From IMG/VR virus record IMGVR_UViG_3300027932_000003, positions 1-34,531 of that record: 34,531 bases of DNA. One strand, given 5' to 3'. This document shows positions 1-34,531 of this stretch, one piece after another; the stretch's first letter is position 1, and every line of letters starts with the position of its first letter. Source of the DNA: a virus. The notes below the pieces were generated by a model that did no database searches, was not told the DNA's origin, and worked only from the letters and a program-made list of their open reading frames with translations. The position numbers and the translations under genes were made by a program.

Positions 1-50
1 TGTAGTTTTTTTCATTTTCTGCGAAAATTTCACAACTAATGCAAAAAATT

Positions 51-410
51 GAAAATTCCAATTTCTTTCGTTTTTTTCGTTTTTTTCGCAAATTTCCCAA
101 CTTTCGCAATAAATTGGAAATTCCAATTAATTCTACACCTCCAAATAATAATTGGAGCGGTGCAAAAAATTCAAACTTCCAAAATTCCAATTAATCTGTC
201 ATTTTGCGTAAATTGTGCAAAAAATGAGAAAAATTGTAAATTCCTAATTTCCTAAATTTGAAATAATCTATCATTTTCTGCAAAAAAGTTAAAAAATTGG
301 AAATTCCTAAATTCCAAATAATTCTACATTTCCAAATAATTTTTCAACTATGATAAAAAATACTAATTTTCTAAATTCCTAAATTACAATTAATCTGTCA
401 TTTAGTGAAA
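51..410. repeat. Imperfect short tandem direct repeats inside the ITR (unit approx aaattcc(a/t)aatt, plus recurring aattaatctgtcatt)
   Basis: At least 8 copies of the aaattcc-aatt motif seen by eye between about 51 and 395; aattaatctgtcattt occurs at about 190 and 388; mirrored in the right ITR. Confidence 0.5.
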
Positions 411-1289
411 TTTGTAATATAAAATTTGCAAATTCAAACTTTGGAAATTTGTAATAAATGTTAATTTGTGGATATTAATAACTACTAACTATAATATTAT
501 AATTTATAATTTGGAGGGAACCAAACCCACAATTTAAAGTTTTTAGTTACTAAACATATTCATAATTTATTTAATTTCTTAATTCTAGCAAACCAAAACC
601 TCAATTTAAAGTTAGAAAGATACTAAACATATTGTTAATTTGTTATATTTATTCAAATCGTTATGTGTTGTTAGTTTTTTGCGTTTAGTGTTGGAGAAAT
701 TGGAAGTTTAGAAAGAAAAGTTTATATACCAGAAGAAAGCATTTAGTATTGTTAGTGGGCATTATCTTTCTTCTTATTATTATTTTTTTATATATATTAT
801 TATTAACATTTAAATTAGATAATTATATAATTATGAAGTTATATAATTATATAATTAGCTAACTACTAATTAGTAGTTTATAATATAATAATTATAGTTT
901 TGTAGTTCAAGTGTAAAATATAGTTTCTTTTTTTCTTTCAATTCAATAGAAGATTCTGTATACAGTTTGGATTTATATCAGTATTTTATGGTAAAAATTG
1001 TAAGGAGATTTAATAATTTAGAGAATATGGAAACTATCTAGTTATTCAATATAATAATTATATAGTTATGTAGTTAGTAGTTTATAATTAATAAATTATA
1101 GTCAAACCTAAAATAGGTTTTTTTAGGATTTTTCACCGTTAGGAAACAATTTATGTTTGGTGTTATGAGAGAAATTGGAGAGACAGAATTTACACGTTCT
1201 CTATAGAGAGAGGTGGCGATAAGAGTTAAGGAGATAGAGAATGTTTTATATTCGTCATATAATATATGATGATTTGTAGATGATAAAAA

Positions 1290-1478
1290 ATGACAAGAGT
1301 ACATAAATTAACTGCTGAGCAGAAAAAAATTTTAGAAAGAATGCATAATAGAATAGATTATATTATCAAAGCTTACAAGGAGTATTTGAATGCGTTAGCT
1401 GAATTTGATAGAACTGGTGTATTAAAAATTCATGGGAAAGTCATTTATGAAAGAAAATATAATGATCATCAAAAATAA
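1290..1478 (+). CDS. ITR-encoded hypothetical protein (62 aa), left copy
   Basis: ATG-initiated ORF with balanced helical-looking composition; upstream ttttatattcGTCATAt (1241..1260) about 40 nt before the ATG matches the genome-wide promoter pattern; identical copy in right ITR. Confidence 0.5.
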   Translation: MTRVHKLTAEQKKILERMHNRIDYIIKAYKEYLNALAEFDRTGVLKIHGKVIYERKYNDHQK

Positions 1479-1516
1479 CATAATTATAAGTCGAAAAATG
1501 AAGACATGAAAAGGTA

Positions 1517-1536
1517 GAGAAAGATTTAAATATGAG
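1517..1536 (+). promoter_or_regulatory. BRE/TATA promoter (gagaaagaTTTAAATAtgag) inside the ITR, driving 1567..1764
   Basis: Purine-rich stretch plus TTTAAATA box about 40 nt upstream of ATG 1567; same module recurs at about 1937..1954, 3241..3260 and 3968..3986. The mirrored copy (32996..33015) sits about 39 nt upstream of ATG 32966 on the minus strand. Confidence 0.5.
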
Positions 1537-1566
1537 TTTTTACATATATGATATTGTGAATAAAAG

Positions 1567-5418: not shown

Positions 5419-6726
5419 TTAACCACCTAAATTACTAAATCTCATTAAGTTTATTATTCTATTACAAATTTCTTCATTTTGTACTTTTCCAATTTGTAAA
5501 TCTATGTCTAATGCCTGTAATAGAATTTGAATATCGATACTTTGCTCTTGTCTTCTGGATTCTAAATTTTCGCAATTTACATAGTTATGAATACTATTTA
5601 TCTTCTGTTGAATTAATTCAATTAATGCTTTTAAAATTGAAGGATAAAGAACTCTTGCATTTATAATTTTATCGTAAGTTTTCTTAATTGCTAATTGAAT
5701 AATATGAATTCTATCTAATATTGCAGAAGTGAAAATTTCATAATTTTGTAGATAGTCTTCTAAATCTGGAGTTACTAATTTATTAATTGTATATGCATAT
5801 GGATTTCCAGCGTAAATAATTGGAATACATTTTTGTATAGTTGCTGATTTTGATTCTGTTCCAGCTCCTCTTGTCCAAATACAATTTTCAATTCCAGTTG
5901 ATAGAGTTGAATTTATAGTATTTAGTTCTTTTGTTGAAAAACCATCTTTCCAATTTTGAATTTCATCAAATATCAAACCGTTTGATAGAAATACAGCTCC
6001 ATACATATTGTTTCGAGCATCATATACCAAATTGGCATAAGTTGGAGCTTCCGTGTAATATCTAAAATTGAAAACTTCTTGTAAAATCATGAAAGTTGTA
6101 GTTTTTCCAGTTCCTCTATTAGAAATTTCAATATAATTTATTTGTCTTTTGGTAATTGGAGATTTGAAAAGTGGGAATAGTCTTGGAAGAAAGAGAAATA
6201 TATCATTTATTTCCATTTTAGTCGGGTCATATCCAAAACTTTGCAATAAAAGTGCATAAGTTGAATATTCTGAATTTGCTAATTCAAATAATTCTTTTGC
6301 AATTTCATAATTGTTGGGTGGCTCAATTGAATAAATATCATAAATACGCCAACCTTCTATACCTTTTCTAATTTTGACAAACATGTAACTTGTAATTAAA
6401 TTATAGAAATTTTCAGGATTATCAGCTATAAAATGTGGATCGAAATTTGCAGTAAAACCATTTTGAAATTTTGCTATAACTTCATCATCTTTTACTTTAA
6501 ACTGTATAATTTTAGAGATAAATTTCACTTCATCATTAAAAAGCAAATAAGATTGAAAATATTGTTGATCAATTCCGCGTTTGTAAGCTTTTAAAATTTC
6601 AATTTTCTTCCTTTCTTCAATTTGTTTTCCAGAGAGAATTATATTTAAAACTCTTTCTGTATCTCTTGGATTATAAAAAAAAGAATGAGATTTTATTTTT
6701 TCAAGAAGTTGATTTGAACTACTCAT
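5419..6726 (-). CDS. P-loop ATPase, putative helicase (435 aa)
   Basis: Walker A NRGTGKTT; size and position between the SSB-like and nuclease genes. Confidence 0.7.
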
Positions 6727-6751: not shown

Positions 6752-7165
6752 TTAAAATTCGTCTTCAACATTCTTTTTCTCTTTCTTTTTCTGTGTTTTT
6801 TCCTCCTTTTGGCTTGATTTTTGTTTTTCTTCTTCTTCTTCTGTGTCTATTTCTTCTTCTTGAACAGCATTATTATTCCTTGGCGTAAATTTTACATATT
6901 CGTTTAATAAGTCAGCATATTTATTTAAGAATTCTGAAATTAATCTTAAATCTTCAGCATCATTTGCGGTTATTCCAAGTTGTTTTCTAAAATTATTAGC
7001 AGAATGGATAGTCATTGAGTATCTAACTTTTCCGTCTTGTGGTATTGCATTTAACTGTACAACTATTCTTTTTAGACCTTTGATTTTTAAAATTCTACTG
7101 GCTATTTTATTATTTTCTTTAGCTTGTTTACCTAACTCATCTATTATTTCCTTCAAACTTGCCAT
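6752..7165 (-). CDS. putative ssDNA-binding protein with acidic C-terminal tail (137 aa)
   Basis: Acidic tail EEEIDTEEEEE; first gene of the leftward operon; promoter aaatatGTCATAttataag on the minus strand at about 7184..7208. Function inferred from operon context, not from a motif. Confidence 0.5.
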   Translation of the reverse strand: MASLKEIIDELGKQAKENNKIASRILKIKGLKRIVVQLNAIPQDGKVRYSMTIHSANNFRKQLGITANDAEDLRLISEFLNKYADLLNEYVKFTPRNNNAVQEEEIDTEEEEEKQKSSQKEEKTQKKKEKKNVEDEF

Positions 7166-7265
7166 CTTTTTCGCCTTATTAATAACTTATAATATGACAT
7201 ATTTATATATTTATAAAAGTACAAGCCATGATATTTAGAAGTTTAAAAAAAGATGAAAAAAATAT

Positions 7266-7538
7266 TTAAATTAACTTAAAGAATATAGATCTTATTAATT
7301 TAGATACTTTCATATTATATTTATTTGCTAATTCTTCAAGTTTTTGATAATATAATTCATCAATTGTGAAAAAAACACGCTCATCATAAATTTCACTGAT
7401 TTCAATTTCTTTAAATTCTTTTTGAGAATTTAGAATTTTATCTATTTCTTGTTTTATTGTCTCTCTTTTCTCATAAAAAAGATTTTTATACTTTGATGGT
7501 ATACGTAATTCGATATACTTATTTCTTTGCTTTTTCAT
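7266..7538 (-). CDS. hypothetical protein, possible ribbon-helix-helix fold (90 aa)
   Basis: C-terminal half RVFFTIDELYYQKLEELANKYNMKVSKLIRSIF fits a strand-helix-turn-helix (RHH) pattern; divergent from Rep across a shared 70-bp promoter region. Confidence 0.4.
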   Translation of the reverse strand: MKKQRNKYIELRIPSKYKNLFYEKRETIKQEIDKILNSQKEFKEIEISEIYDERVFFTIDELYYQKLEELANKYNMKVSKLIRSIFFKLI

Positions 7539-7581
7539 AATTTTAGATATTTTCAGGCATTATATAAACATGACATATACA

Positions 7582-7593
7582 TTTAAATGTCAG
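7582..7593 (+). promoter_or_regulatory. Rep promoter: TTTAAATGTCAG (TATA followed directly by GTC)
   Basis: TATA box abutting GTC about 20 nt upstream of the Rep start codon. Confidence 0.5.
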
Positions 7594-7609
7594 GTTTTCA
7601 ATTGCATAT

Positions 7610-7954
7610 GTGAACGGTAAAAAAGTTTTTAGCTATCATTTTCTTTATGTTTACACGTATTTTATTACTATTGCTACAAATTATCACTATAATGATACGA
7701 CAAAAATCTATAAAAAATTCAGACAATATATTTATAATCATGATAAAAATTCTCATATTTTTTCAGTAAAAGAATATACAACAAGATTACATGGTCTACA
7801 TTATCATGTTTTAGTTTTCACGAATAAAAGGCTTGACTATTCCAGAGTTCATAAGCAAATGCCAAAACATTCAGATATAAATATTCAATTAGTTCCAAAA
7901 ACAAAAAATGATATAAAAAAAGTTTTAACTTATATGTTAAAAAATCAAAAATAA
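7610..7954 (+). CDS. HUH-superfamily rolling-circle replication initiator Rep (114 aa)
   Basis: LHGLHYHVLVF (HUH motif: H-hydrophobic-H followed by hydrophobics) and VLTYMLK (YxxK, Tyr at residue 108 by my count). The frame has no ATG before residue 84, so the start is GTG at 7610, right at the expected leaderless position. Confidence 0.75.
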   Translation: MNGKKVFSYHFLYVYTYFITIATNYHYNDTTKIYKKFRQYIYNHDKNSHIFSVKEYTTRLHGLHYHVLVFTNKRLDYSRVHKQMPKHSDINIQLVPKTKNDIKKVLTYMLKNQK

Positions 7955-7955
7955 A

Positions 7956-8243
7956 TTACTTAGATTGAGGTTGTTGATTTTGTTCAGCTTTTTTCTGTGC
8001 TAATGCATTTACATCTCTTAATGTATCCATATTCAAGAGTGAATTAATTCCAAGGGTTGTAGTATCTTTAATTGATTCAACTGCTGAAATTGTAGATTTT
8101 GTCATCTGATCTACTGCAATTTGGAATGATTGATTTGCTTGCTTTTGATTGTAGAGATATACTACTTCTCCAACAACATAGCTAGCTATTAGAACTCCCA
8201 TCAGTACTAAAAATCCTTCTAAAGCTGTTTGGCTTAGTGTCAT
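7956..8243 (-). CDS. small membrane protein, N-terminal TM helix plus helical domain (95 aa); PVAP-like candidate
   Basis: One hydrophobic segment (ALEGFLVLMGVLIASYVVGEVVYLY) followed by about 65 polar, helix-prone residues; architecture resembles the roughly 98-aa rudivirus pyramid egress protein. Assignment is tentative. Confidence 0.5.
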   Translation of the reverse strand: MTLSQTALEGFLVLMGVLIASYVVGEVVYLYNQKQANQSFQIAVDQMTKSTISAVESIKDTTTLGINSLLNMDTLRDVNALAQKKAEQNQQPQSK

Positions 8244-8341
8244 TTCAATTTTATTATATGCAAATTACTTAGTAATAAAGTTTATGCAAAAAATCGAAAT
8301 ATATAAATATGTCATAATGTATGTTTATAAAATGAGGAAAA

Positions 8342-8503
8342 ATGATGGAGAAAGTTAAAAAGGAAAGAACAGTTTTCGGTATAAATATAGATAAAGAATT
8401 AAAAAGAAAATTAAAAGTATATTGTGCAAATAATAATATCACGCTAACAGAAGCAATTGAAGAAGCTTTAGAAGAATATTTACAGAAAAGGGGAACTAAA
8501 TGA
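8342..8503 (+). CDS. ribbon-helix-helix (CopG/Arc-like) DNA-binding protein (53 aa)
   Basis: Hand-translated: [53 protein letters not shown]; promoter atataaataTGTCATAat at 8301..8318; missed by the ORF track. Confidence 0.55.
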
Positions 8504-32966: not shown

Positions 32967-32992
32967 CTTTTTCACCATTATCTATTATCTCT

Positions 32993-34531
32993 AAACTCAT
33001 ATTTAAATCTTTCTCTACCTTTTCATGTCTTCATTTTTCGACTTATAATTATGTTATTTTTGATGATCATTATATTTTCTTTCATAAATGACTTTCCCAT
33101 GAATTTTTAATACACCAGTTCTATCAAATTCAGCTAACGCATTCAAATACTCCTTGTAAGCTTTGATAATATAATCTATTCTATTATGCATTCTTTCTAA
33201 AATTTTTTTCTGCTCAGCAGTTAATTTATGTACTCTTGTCATTTTTTATCATCTACAAATCATCATATATTATATGACGAATATAAAACATTCTCTATCT
33301 CCTTAACTCTTATCGCCACCTCTCTCTATAGAGAACGTGTAAATTCTGTCTCTCCAATTTCTCTCATAACACCAAACATAAATTGTTTCCTAACGGTGAA
33401 AAATCCTAAAAAAACCTATTTTAGGTTTGACTATAATTTATTAATTATAAACTACTAACTACATAACTATATAATTATTATATTGAATAACTAGATAGTT
33501 TCCATATTCTCTAAATTATTAAATCTCCTTACAATTTTTACCATAAAATACTGATATAAATCCAAACTGTATACAGAATCTTCTATTGAATTGAAAGAAA
33601 AAAAGAAACTATATTTTACACTTGAACTACAAAACTATAATTATTATATTATAAACTACTAATTAGTAGTTAGCTAATTATATAATTATATAACTTCATA
33701 ATTATATAATTATCTAATTTAAATGTTAATAATAATATATATAAAAAAATAATAATAAGAAGAAAGATAATGCCCACTAACAATACTAAATGCTTTCTTC
33801 TGGTATATAAACTTTTCTTTCTAAACTTCCAATTTCTCCAACACTAAACGCAAAAAACTAACAACACATAACGATTTGAATAAATATAACAAATTAACAA
33901 TATGTTTAGTATCTTTCTAACTTTAAATTGAGGTTTTGGTTTGCTAGAATTAAGAAATTAAATAAATTATGAATATGTTTAGTAACTAAAAACTTTAAAT
34001 TGTGGGTTTGGTTCCCTCCAAATTATAAATTATAATATTATAGTTAGTAGTTATTAATATCCACAAATTAACATTTATTACAAATTTCCAAAGTTTGAAT
34101 TTGCAAATTTTATATTACAAATTTCACTAAATGACAGATTAATTGTAATTTAGGAATTTAGAAAATTAGTATTTTTTATCATAGTTGAAAAATTATTTGG
34201 AAATGTAGAATTATTTGGAATTTAGGAATTTCCAATTTTTTAACTTTTTTGCAGAAAATGATAGATTATTTCAAATTTAGGAAATTAGGAATTTACAATT
34301 TTTCTCATTTTTTGCACAATTTACGCAAAATGACAGATTAATTGGAATTTTGGAAGTTTGAATTTTTTGCACCGCTCCAATTATTATTTGGAGGTGTAGA
34401 ATTAATTGGAATTTCCAATTTATTGCGAAAGTTGGGAAATTTGCGAAAAAAACGAAAAAAACGAAAGAAATTGGAATTTTCAATTTTTTGCATTAGTTGT
34501 GAAATTTTCGCAGAAAATGAAAAAAACTACA
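32993..34531. repeat. Right inverted terminal repeat (ITR)
   Basis: Mirror copy of 1..1539; the window ends with the reverse complement of its first bases. Confidence 0.85.
33054..33242 (-). CDS. ITR-encoded hypothetical protein (62 aa), right copy
   Basis: Identical translation to 1290..1478; mirrored promoter. Confidence 0.5.
   Translation of the reverse strand: MTRVHKLTAEQKKILERMHNRIDYIIKAYKEYLNALAEFDRTGVLKIHGKVIYERKYNDHQK

What the first reader, a model, noticed from the sequence alone, without database searches (positions are those of the whole stretch)
7610..7954. HUH Rep gene with a non-ATG (GTG) start and catalytic Tyr near the C-terminus
The ORF has the HUH motif (HYH followed by VLVF) and YxxK at Tyr108, as in rolling-circle initiators of rudiviruses. 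The reading frame has no ATG until residue 84, so translation must start at GTG 7610, directly downstream of a TATA+GTC promoter. An ATG two bases upstream (7608) is out of frame and followed at once by a stop, so a sequencing frameshift is unlikely.
Basis: partly seen in the sequence, partly recalled or inferred. Interest (0 to 1): 0.55.

Follow-up and report, generated by a model that had tools for sequence, protein, structure and literature searches.

The report
Rudivirus Rep gene with GTG start
This is the ordinary copy of the already characterised replication-initiator (Rep) gene of Sulfolobus rod-shaped viruses, and its GTG start codon is a conserved feature that GenBank already annotates in related viruses.

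Summary
The ORF at 7610-7954 (+) encodes 114 aa and starts at GTG. It has HYH at residues 64-66 followed by VLVF, YMLK at 108-111, and its first in-frame ATG at codon 84. An out-of-frame ATG at 7608 runs straight into TGA.

The protein is 70% identical, end to end, to SIRV1 ORF119, the solved and biochemically characterised rudiviral HUH Rep (PDB 2X3G, E=1e-48). It passes the Pfam cut-offs for PF21578 and PF23343.

The window is a near-complete linear usarudivirus genome. It is about 89% identical at the nucleotide level to SIRV8/9 and has perfect 1556-bp inverted terminal repeats.

The GTG start is invariant in 15 of 16 rudiviral homologues. In each it lies exactly 18 nt downstream of a conserved TATA box plus GTC motif, while the spacer between them varies freely. 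Nine other ORFs in this genome (eight ATG, one TTG) have their start codon at the same distance from a GTC motif. This points to a leaderless mRNA that begins at or next to the GTG.

GenBank already annotates this GTG start in SIRV2 and SIRV4-11. Nothing here is new, so interest is low.

The parts
7582..7588 (+). TATA box (TTTAAAT) of the Rep promoter
   Evidence: Read directly. TTTAAA is conserved in all 12 distinct homologous upstream sequences in a fixed register.
7589..7591 (+). GTC trinucleotide immediately downstream of the TATA box, the rudivirus-specific promoter element
   Evidence: It is conserved in all SIRV homologues, and SBRV1 has GTA. The GTC motif of SIRV1/2 promoters is described in PMC5569661, citing Kessler et al. 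2004.
7592..7609 (+). 18-nt spacer between GTC and the start codon; the predicted transcription start lies at its 3' end
   Evidence: Its length is invariant but its sequence is variable across 16 loci. The transcription start site itself is inferred, not mapped.
7608..7613 (+). Out-of-frame ATG followed at once by TGA, overlapping the GTG
   Evidence: An ATG at -2 is present in only 7 of the 16 GTG-start loci (window, SIRV8, SIRV9, SIRV11, V60, V65, SBRV1), so it is not conserved.
7610..7612 (+). GTG initiation codon of Rep
   Evidence: It is the first canonical start after the in-frame stop at 7571-7573 and the only one upstream of codon 84. It is invariant in 15 of 16 homologous loci. The N-terminus is colinear with the 119-aa protein crystallised as 2X3G.
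7610..7954 (+). Rep coding sequence, 114 aa plus the TAA stop
7658..7672 (+). Rep motif I (Y17-F-I-T-I21)
   Evidence: Y17, F18, T20 and I21 are invariant in 17 rudiviral Reps.
7799..7819 (+). Rep motif II, the HUH motif (H64-Y-H66-V-L-V-F70)
   Evidence: H64, H66, L68 and F70 are invariant in 17 sequences.
7931..7942 (+). Rep motif III (Y108-M-L-K111), with the catalytic tyrosine
   Evidence: Y108 is invariant in 17 sequences, and K111 in 16 of 17. It aligns with Tyr108 of 2X3G.
1..1556 (.). Left inverted terminal repeat, the presumed site of Rep action (origin)
   Evidence: It is 100% complementary to 32976-34531. Window 1-92 is 91% identical to the SIRV1/2 termini. The window stops about 23 nt short of the hairpin apex seen in the SIRV1 and SIRV8 records.
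32976..34531 (.). Right inverted terminal repeat

Best explanation
The ORF at 7610-7954 is the rudiviral replication initiator Rep, the orthologue of SIRV1 ORF119 and SIRV2 gp16 (ORF119c). It is a small single-domain HUH endonuclease. By homology, the HUH histidines (H64, H66) hold a divalent metal, and Tyr108 attacks one strand near the covalently closed hairpin terminus inside the ITR. This forms a 5'-phosphotyrosine adduct and frees a 3'-OH that primes strand-displacement synthesis. The second active site of the dimer reseals the hairpin. Expression comes from a host-type archaeal promoter (TATA 7582-7588 plus the rudiviral GTC 7589-7591). The transcript starts at or within about 2 nt of G7610, so the mRNA is leaderless and translation begins at the 5'-terminal GUG. 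Shown here: the homology, the motifs, conservation of the GTG and of the promoter spacing, and the ITR genome context. Inferred: the transcription start, leaderless initiation, and the enzymatic activity of this particular orthologue.
For: The protein is 70% identical over residues 4-114 to PDB 2X3G, SIRV1 ORF119, at E=1.2e-48 with the same residue numbering. It scores 158.6 bits on Pfam PF21578 (cut-off 27) and 33 bits on PF23343 REP_ORF2-G2P (cut-off 27.8). There are 30 tblastn hits, all in Rudiviridae, at 42-87% identity. Motifs I, II and III are invariant in 17 sequences. Synteny with SIRV9/8/10 is exact: a gp18-like ATPase, a gp17-like PHA01746 protein, a 90-aa weak RHH match below the Pfam cut-off, Rep, the pyramid protein and the SvtR-like RHH. 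The genome is linear with 1556-bp perfect ITRs. GTG is invariant in 15 of 16 loci, always 18 nt after TATA+GTC, while the spacer and codons 2-4 vary. No other canonical start codon could include motifs I and II. Ten ORFs in this genome have GTC at -21 to -23 from the start codon, Rep at -21; of the other nine, eight start with ATG and one with TTG. Annotated genes of SIRV8 and SIRV2 show the same peak at -21 to -23. About 60% of S. islandicus transcripts are leaderless (PMC10883916). Rep function comes from the literature: it nicks the SIRV terminus, forms a covalent 5' adduct and releases a 3'-OH (PMC5062984, PMC4187194, both citing Oke et al. 2011).
Against: No transcription-start or N-terminal protein data for this gene were available; Kessler 2004, Okutan 2013 and Oke 2011 are not held in the library. 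The Rep nick site could not be located because the window lacks the extreme hairpin terminus. RefSeq annotates other starts for two homologues: SIRV1 at a TTG two codons downstream, and SIRV3 at a GTG 73 codons upstream. The exact initiation codon has therefore not been settled by experiment.
Confidence: 0.9

Rival explanations
1. The conserved GTG is not merely tolerated. It is selected as a weak initiation codon that keeps the Rep dose low, acting as a translational throttle on the replication initiator.
For: A single G-to-A transition would create ATG, yet GTG is retained in 15 of 16 loci across three genera that are only 46% identical in protein sequence, while neighbouring bases vary freely. 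In the closest annotated genome only 3 of 61 genes are annotated with a non-ATG start, and Rep is one of them.
Against: The 16 loci are phylogenetically related and collapse to 12 distinct sequences in about 4 lineages, so the count overstates independent retention. SRV uses ATG. No expression data are available. This refines the best explanation and is compatible with it.
Confidence: 0.35
2. Translation starts somewhere other than 7610. Candidates are an upstream near-cognate codon (ATT 7601 or ATA 7577, in frame after the stop at 7571) or the internal ATG at codon 84.
For: The frame is open for 12 codons upstream of the GTG. The SIRV3 RefSeq annotation extends the ORF far upstream.
Against: The upstream open stretch is the promoter itself (TATA+GTC). 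Its spacer part is not conserved at the protein or nucleotide level. A start at Met84 would remove motifs I and II, which are invariant. The active, crystallised SIRV1 protein starts at the homologous GTG.
Confidence: 0.04
3. The GTG start is an artefact of a sequencing frameshift, and the true start is the ATG at 7608.
For: ATG 7608 overlaps the GTG.
Against: ATG 7608 is followed directly by TGA. Homologues lacking any ATG at -2 (SIRV1, 2, 3, 4, 5, 6, 7, 10 and V3) keep the same GTG and the same frame. An independent metagenome assembly carries the identical sequence over 2345 nt.
Confidence: 0.01

Closest known systems
SIRV1 ORF119 Rep (PDB 2X3G; Oke et al. 2011, J Virol 85:925) and its SIRV2 orthologue gp16/ORF119c
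   Same: It is 70-71% identical in amino acids and colinear from the N-terminus. It shares motif I, the HUH motif, and Tyr108 in a YxxK motif. It also shares the GTG start and the TATA+GTC promoter 18 nt upstream, and sits in a linear genome with long ITRs.
   Different: It is 5 residues shorter at the C-terminus (114 versus 119 aa). The neighbourhood is rearranged: in the usarudiviruses the pyramid-protein gene lies between Rep and the SvtR-like gene, on the opposite strand.
Rep orthologues of Yellowstone usarudiviruses SIRV4-11 and isolates V3, V60 and V65 (annotated as 'hypothetical protein')
   Same: It is 74-87% identical in amino acids, 114-115 aa long, and has the same GTG start, the same promoter and the same flanking genes.
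   Different: The differences are point substitutions only, for example Gly3 where the others have Cys or Ser. The best match is 86.8%, to SIRV10.
HUH Rep proteins with a single catalytic Tyr (Pfam PF23343, REP_ORF2-G2P)
   Same: It has the same three-motif order with one YxxK tyrosine, and scores above the Pfam gathering cut-off.
   Different: It is a minimal endonuclease domain of about 115 aa with no helicase domain. It is dimeric, and it is proposed to act on hairpin ends of a linear dsDNA genome rather than on a circular replicon (PMC4187194).

Membership tests
Rudiviral Rep (SIRV1 ORF119 family, Pfam PF21578 '117-like_vir') | Sequence match above the family's curated cut-off over the full length | tested here: met
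   The score is 158.6 bits against a cut-off of 27, covering profile positions 2-100 of 101. The match to 2X3G is E=1.2e-48 over residues 4-114 of both proteins.
Rudiviral Rep (SIRV1 ORF119 family, Pfam PF21578 '117-like_vir') | Encoded in a linear rudivirus genome with long inverted terminal repeats, in conserved synteny | tested here: met
   The ITRs are 1556 bp and perfect. The window is about 89% identical in nucleotides to SIRV8/9. The flanking genes are the same as in SIRV9.
Rudiviral Rep (SIRV1 ORF119 family, Pfam PF21578 '117-like_vir') | Site-specific nicking and joining at the hairpin terminus with a covalent Tyr-DNA adduct | not testable with these tools
   This needs biochemistry. 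The window also stops about 23 nt short of the hairpin apex, so the nick site cannot even be located in the sequence.
Rudiviral Rep (SIRV1 ORF119 family, Pfam PF21578 '117-like_vir') | Homodimer with two closely positioned active sites | not tested
   This is inferred only from 70% identity to the dimeric 2X3G. No model was built.
HUH endonuclease (Rep) superfamily | Motif II: His-hydrophobic-His followed by hydrophobic residues | tested here: met
   The motif is H64-Y65-H66-V-L-V-F. H64, H66, L68 and F70 are invariant in 17 sequences.
HUH endonuclease (Rep) superfamily | Motif III: catalytic Tyr (YxxK) | tested here: met
   The motif is Y108-M-L-K111. Y108 is invariant in 17 of 17 sequences and K111 in 16 of 17.
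HUH endonuclease (Rep) superfamily | Motif I (uuTu) N-terminal to the HUH motif | tested here: met
   The motif is F18-I-T-I21, with F18, T20 and I21 invariant.
HUH endonuclease (Rep) superfamily | Rep fold | tested here: met
   I tested this only through sequence: 70% identity across the whole chain of the solved structure 2X3G. PMC4187194 describes that structure as having the superfamily II Rep fold. I made no independent structure prediction.
Leaderless archaeal mRNA with a non-ATG start | Start codon at the transcription start, about 25 nt downstream of the TATA-box centre | tested here: inconclusive
   The geometry fits. The TATA centre at 7585 is 25 nt before G7610. GTC at -21 falls in the same -21 to -23 class as nine other ORFs of the genome, eight with ATG and one with TTG, and as annotated genes in SIRV8 and SIRV2. 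No transcription-start data were available.

The most novel reading that the evidence does not exclude
The GTG at the 5' end of a leaderless Rep mRNA is kept by selection as a deliberately weak start. It would limit the dose of the replication initiator across at least three rudivirus genera, and could make Rep synthesis depend on host initiation-factor state during infection.
Probability: 0.3. Interest if true: 0.25.

Novelty: already known. Interest (0 to 1): 0.08.

Why it matters
It matters little beyond correct annotation. The result confirms that this genome carries the canonical rudiviral replication initiator. It also shows that the GTG start, at a fixed distance from a TATA+GTC promoter, is a family-wide feature. 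That could be used to harmonise inconsistent RefSeq start annotations: SIRV1 is annotated at a TTG two codons downstream, SIRV3 with a 73-codon upstream extension, and many orthologues are still labelled 'hypothetical protein'. The one mildly open question is whether the conserved weak start codon has a regulatory role.

Tried and rejected
I tried to read the primary papers for the nick site, catalytic-residue mutants and mapped transcription starts: Oke 2011 (DOI and PMC3019997), Kessler 2004 (PMC524901) and Okutan 2013 (PMC3737344). None is held. Details of Rep biochemistry therefore rest on secondary citations (PMC5062984, PMC4187194) and on my own recollection.

A literature search for 'SIRV Rep Y108' returned only unrelated papers.

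A strict regular expression for TATA+GTC found only six promoters, which was too few. I replaced it with a scan of GTC offsets upstream of all ORFs of at least 60 aa and of annotated SIRV8 and SIRV2 genes.

I did not run the large protein-database searches, structure prediction or fold search. A 70% identical solved structure and 30 annotated viral homologues already settle the identity.

I considered and rejected three alternatives: a sequencing frameshift, an upstream extension of the ORF, and initiation at Met84. The reasons are given under the rival explanations.

Full report
**The observation**

- The ORF opens with GTG at 7610 and ends with TAA at 7952-7954, giving 114 aa.
- The HUH motif is H64-Y65-H66 (7799-7807), followed by V-L-V-F.
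- Y108-M-L-K111 is encoded at 7931-7942.
- The only canonical start codons in frame are codon 1 (GTG), codon 84 (ATG) and codon 109 (ATG).
- The nearest upstream in-frame stop is TGA at 7571-7573.
- ATG at 7608-7610 is out of frame and runs directly into TGA at 7611-7613.
- TTTAAAT (7582-7588) plus GTC (7589-7591) lies 18 nt upstream of the GTG.

**What the window is**

The window is a near-complete linear rudivirus genome.
- It has perfect 1556-bp inverted terminal repeats at 1-1556 and 32976-34531.
- It is 25.4% G+C.
- Its closest relatives are the Yellowstone usarudiviruses SIRV8, SIRV9 and SIRV10, at about 88-89% nucleotide identity over 79-85% of the first 25 kb.
- A stretch of 2345 nt around the gene is 100% identical to a contig of ENA metagenome assembly ERZ27246779. 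The gene caller used there called the same 114-aa product.

**What the gene is**

The protein matches one solved structure, 2X3G ('SIRV1 hypothetical protein ORF119'). The match is E=1.2e-48, with residues 4-114 aligned to residues 4-114 at 70% identity.
- It scores 158.6 bits on Pfam PF21578 (117-like_vir, cut-off 27) and 33 bits on PF23343 (REP_ORF2-G2P, cut-off 27.8).
- It scores 179.7 bits on PHROG 7769, a family of unknown function.
- A tblastn search of the phage collection finds it in 30 records, all Rudiviridae, at 42-87% identity.

In an alignment of 17 rudiviral sequences the invariant residues include:
- Y15, Y17, F18, T20 and I21 (motif I);
- H64, H66, L68 and F70 (motif II, HUH);
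- Y108 (motif III).

K111 is present in 16 of the 17 sequences.

The neighbourhood is syntenic with SIRV9. In order, it holds:
- a gp18-like ATPase (5419-6726, minus strand);
- a gp17-like PHA01746 protein (6752-7165, minus strand);
- a 90-aa protein with a weak RHH match below the Pfam cut-off (7266-7538, minus strand);
- Rep;
- the pyramid-forming protein (7956-8243, minus strand);
- the SvtR-like 56B RHH repressor (8342-8503, plus strand).

SIRV1 ORF119 is the characterised rudiviral Rep. According to PMC5062984 and PMC4187194, both citing Oke et al. 2011, it has four properties:
- It nicks the SIRV genomic terminus.
- It forms a covalent adduct with the new 5' end.
- It releases a 3'-OH for priming.
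- It has the superfamily II Rep fold with a conserved catalytic tyrosine, and is a dimer.

That the catalytic residue is Tyr108 is my recollection of that paper, which I could not open. The alignment does put the window's Y108 on Tyr108 of 2X3G.

**The start codon**

I aligned the start regions of 16 homologous loci in a fixed register.
- GTG occupies the same position in 15 of the 16 homologues: SIRV1-11, isolates V3, V60 and V65, and the Japanese SBRV1. Only SRV has an ATG, on a shorter N-terminus.
- Among the 12 distinct sequences the GTG is invariant. TTTAAA plus GTC (GTA in SBRV1) is conserved exactly 18 nt upstream.
- The 18-nt spacer and codons 2-4 vary freely.
- An ATG at -2 is present in only 7 of the 16 GTG-start loci. 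In the others the preceding bases are TGT, TTC, ATC or ATT. The overlapping ATG is therefore incidental, and a frameshift artefact is excluded.
- The 119-aa protein that was crystallised begins at the homologous GTG.
- A start at Met84 would delete the invariant motifs I and II.

**How the gene is probably expressed**

I scanned the region upstream of all ORFs of at least 60 aa in the window. The distance from the G of a GTC motif to the start codon is bimodal.
- Ten ORFs fall at -21 to -23. Rep is at -21; of the other nine, eight start with ATG and one with TTG. Examples are those starting at 6726, 9766, 10726, 20829, 21726, 25883, 26015 and 27839.
- A second group falls at -30 to -38. These usually have a GGTGA- or GAGG-like motif before the ATG.

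The annotated genes of SIRV8 and SIRV2 show the same two classes.

The TATA centre at 7585 lies 25 nt before G7610, which is the usual archaeal distance from TATA box to transcription start (established knowledge). About 60% of S. islandicus transcripts have 5' UTRs shorter than 4 nt (PMC10883916).

I therefore infer that the Rep mRNA is leaderless and begins at or within about 2 nt of the GUG. This step is inferred, not shown. No transcription-start data for this gene could be retrieved.

**How unusual a GTG start is**

It is not very unusual.
- Annotated SIRV8 has 3 non-ATG starts among 61 genes.
- SIRV2 has 14 among 54, under an older annotation that takes the longest ORF.
- The Rep GTG start is already annotated in the GenBank and RefSeq records of SIRV2 and SIRV4-11.
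- RefSeq differs for SIRV1, which is annotated at a TTG two codons downstream (117 aa; my guess is that this explains the '117' in the Pfam name).
- RefSeq also differs for SIRV3, which is annotated at a GTG 73 codons upstream, reading through the promoter.

The one point that goes slightly beyond the record is the persistence of GTG rather than ATG across three genera with protein identity down to 46%. A weak start that limits Rep dose is a plausible reading. It is untested, and the loci are not independent.

**The substrate**

- The first 92 nt of the window are 91% identical to the Icelandic SIRV1 and SIRV2 termini. The Rep coding sequence itself is only 77-81% identical to theirs. This fits a conserved cis-acting terminal element.
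- The 21-nt motif AATTTAGGAATTTAGGAATTT is one I recall as conserved in rudiviral ITRs. It occurs with one mismatch at 238-258 (minus strand) and 34274-34294 (plus strand), and with two mismatches at 365-385 and 34147-34167. Chance would give 0.05 matches.
- The window starts about 23 nt inside the hairpin apex seen in the SIRV1 and SIRV8 records. The nick site cannot be placed.

**Verdict**

The feature is already known, both as a protein family and as an annotated GTG-start gene. Interest is low.

Noticed in passing
window 1-1556 and 32976-34531: The inverted terminal repeats are perfect and 1556 bp long, so the window is an essentially whole linear rudivirus genome. Compared with the SIRV1 and SIRV8 records, each end stops about 23 nt short of the hairpin apex.
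   Followed up: partly
window 1-92 (and its mirror at 34440-34531): The terminal ~90 nt are 91% identical to the Icelandic SIRV1/2 termini, against 77-81% for the Rep CDS. They include the tandem TTTCGTTTTTTTCGTTTTTTTCG. This is a candidate conserved origin or Rep-recognition element.
   Followed up: partly
window 238-258, 365-385, 34147-34167, 34274-34294: There are four copies, with 1-2 mismatches, of the rudiviral ITR motif AATTTAGGAATTTAGGAATTT. Chance expectation is 0.05.
   Followed up: partly
window 7167-7212 and 8297-8342: A 46-nt inverted repeat (80% complementary) turns out to be two promoters sharing AAATATATAAATATGTCATA. They face outward from the block that holds Rep. One drives the gp17-like gene (start 7165, minus strand) and the other the SvtR-like RHH repressor gene (start 8342, plus strand). 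This could be a shared operator.
   Followed up: no
whole window; examples are starts at 6726(-), 9766(-), 20829(+) versus 2493(+), 8944(-), 32480(-): Distances from the GTC motif to the start codon fall into two classes: -21 to -23, and -30 to -38. The second class usually has a GGTGA/GAGG-like motif. This suggests leaderless and short-leader gene classes. The same pattern appears in annotated SIRV8 and SIRV2.
   Followed up: partly
L013 (SIRV1, NC_004087.1) 298-651; L014 (SIRV3, NC_030884.1) 73-651: RefSeq start annotations of the Rep orthologue are inconsistent. SIRV1 is annotated at a TTG two codons downstream of the conserved GTG. SIRV3 is annotated 73 codons upstream, reading through its own TATA+GTC promoter. 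Most usarudivirus orthologues are still labelled 'hypothetical protein'.
   Followed up: yes
window 7952-7958: Rep and the convergent pyramid-forming-protein gene (7956-8243, minus strand) end one base apart, leaving no room for separate terminators. In SIRV1/2 this gene is elsewhere, and Rep is followed by the SvtR-like gene on the same strand.
   Followed up: no
L022 (ENA ERZ27246779 k141_69905), L023 (ERZ27246761 k141_22465): The exact 114-aa protein occurs in public metagenome assemblies. L022 is 100% identical and L023 99.8% identical over 2345 nt around the gene. No record in the phage collection exceeds about 89% identity.
   Followed up: partly
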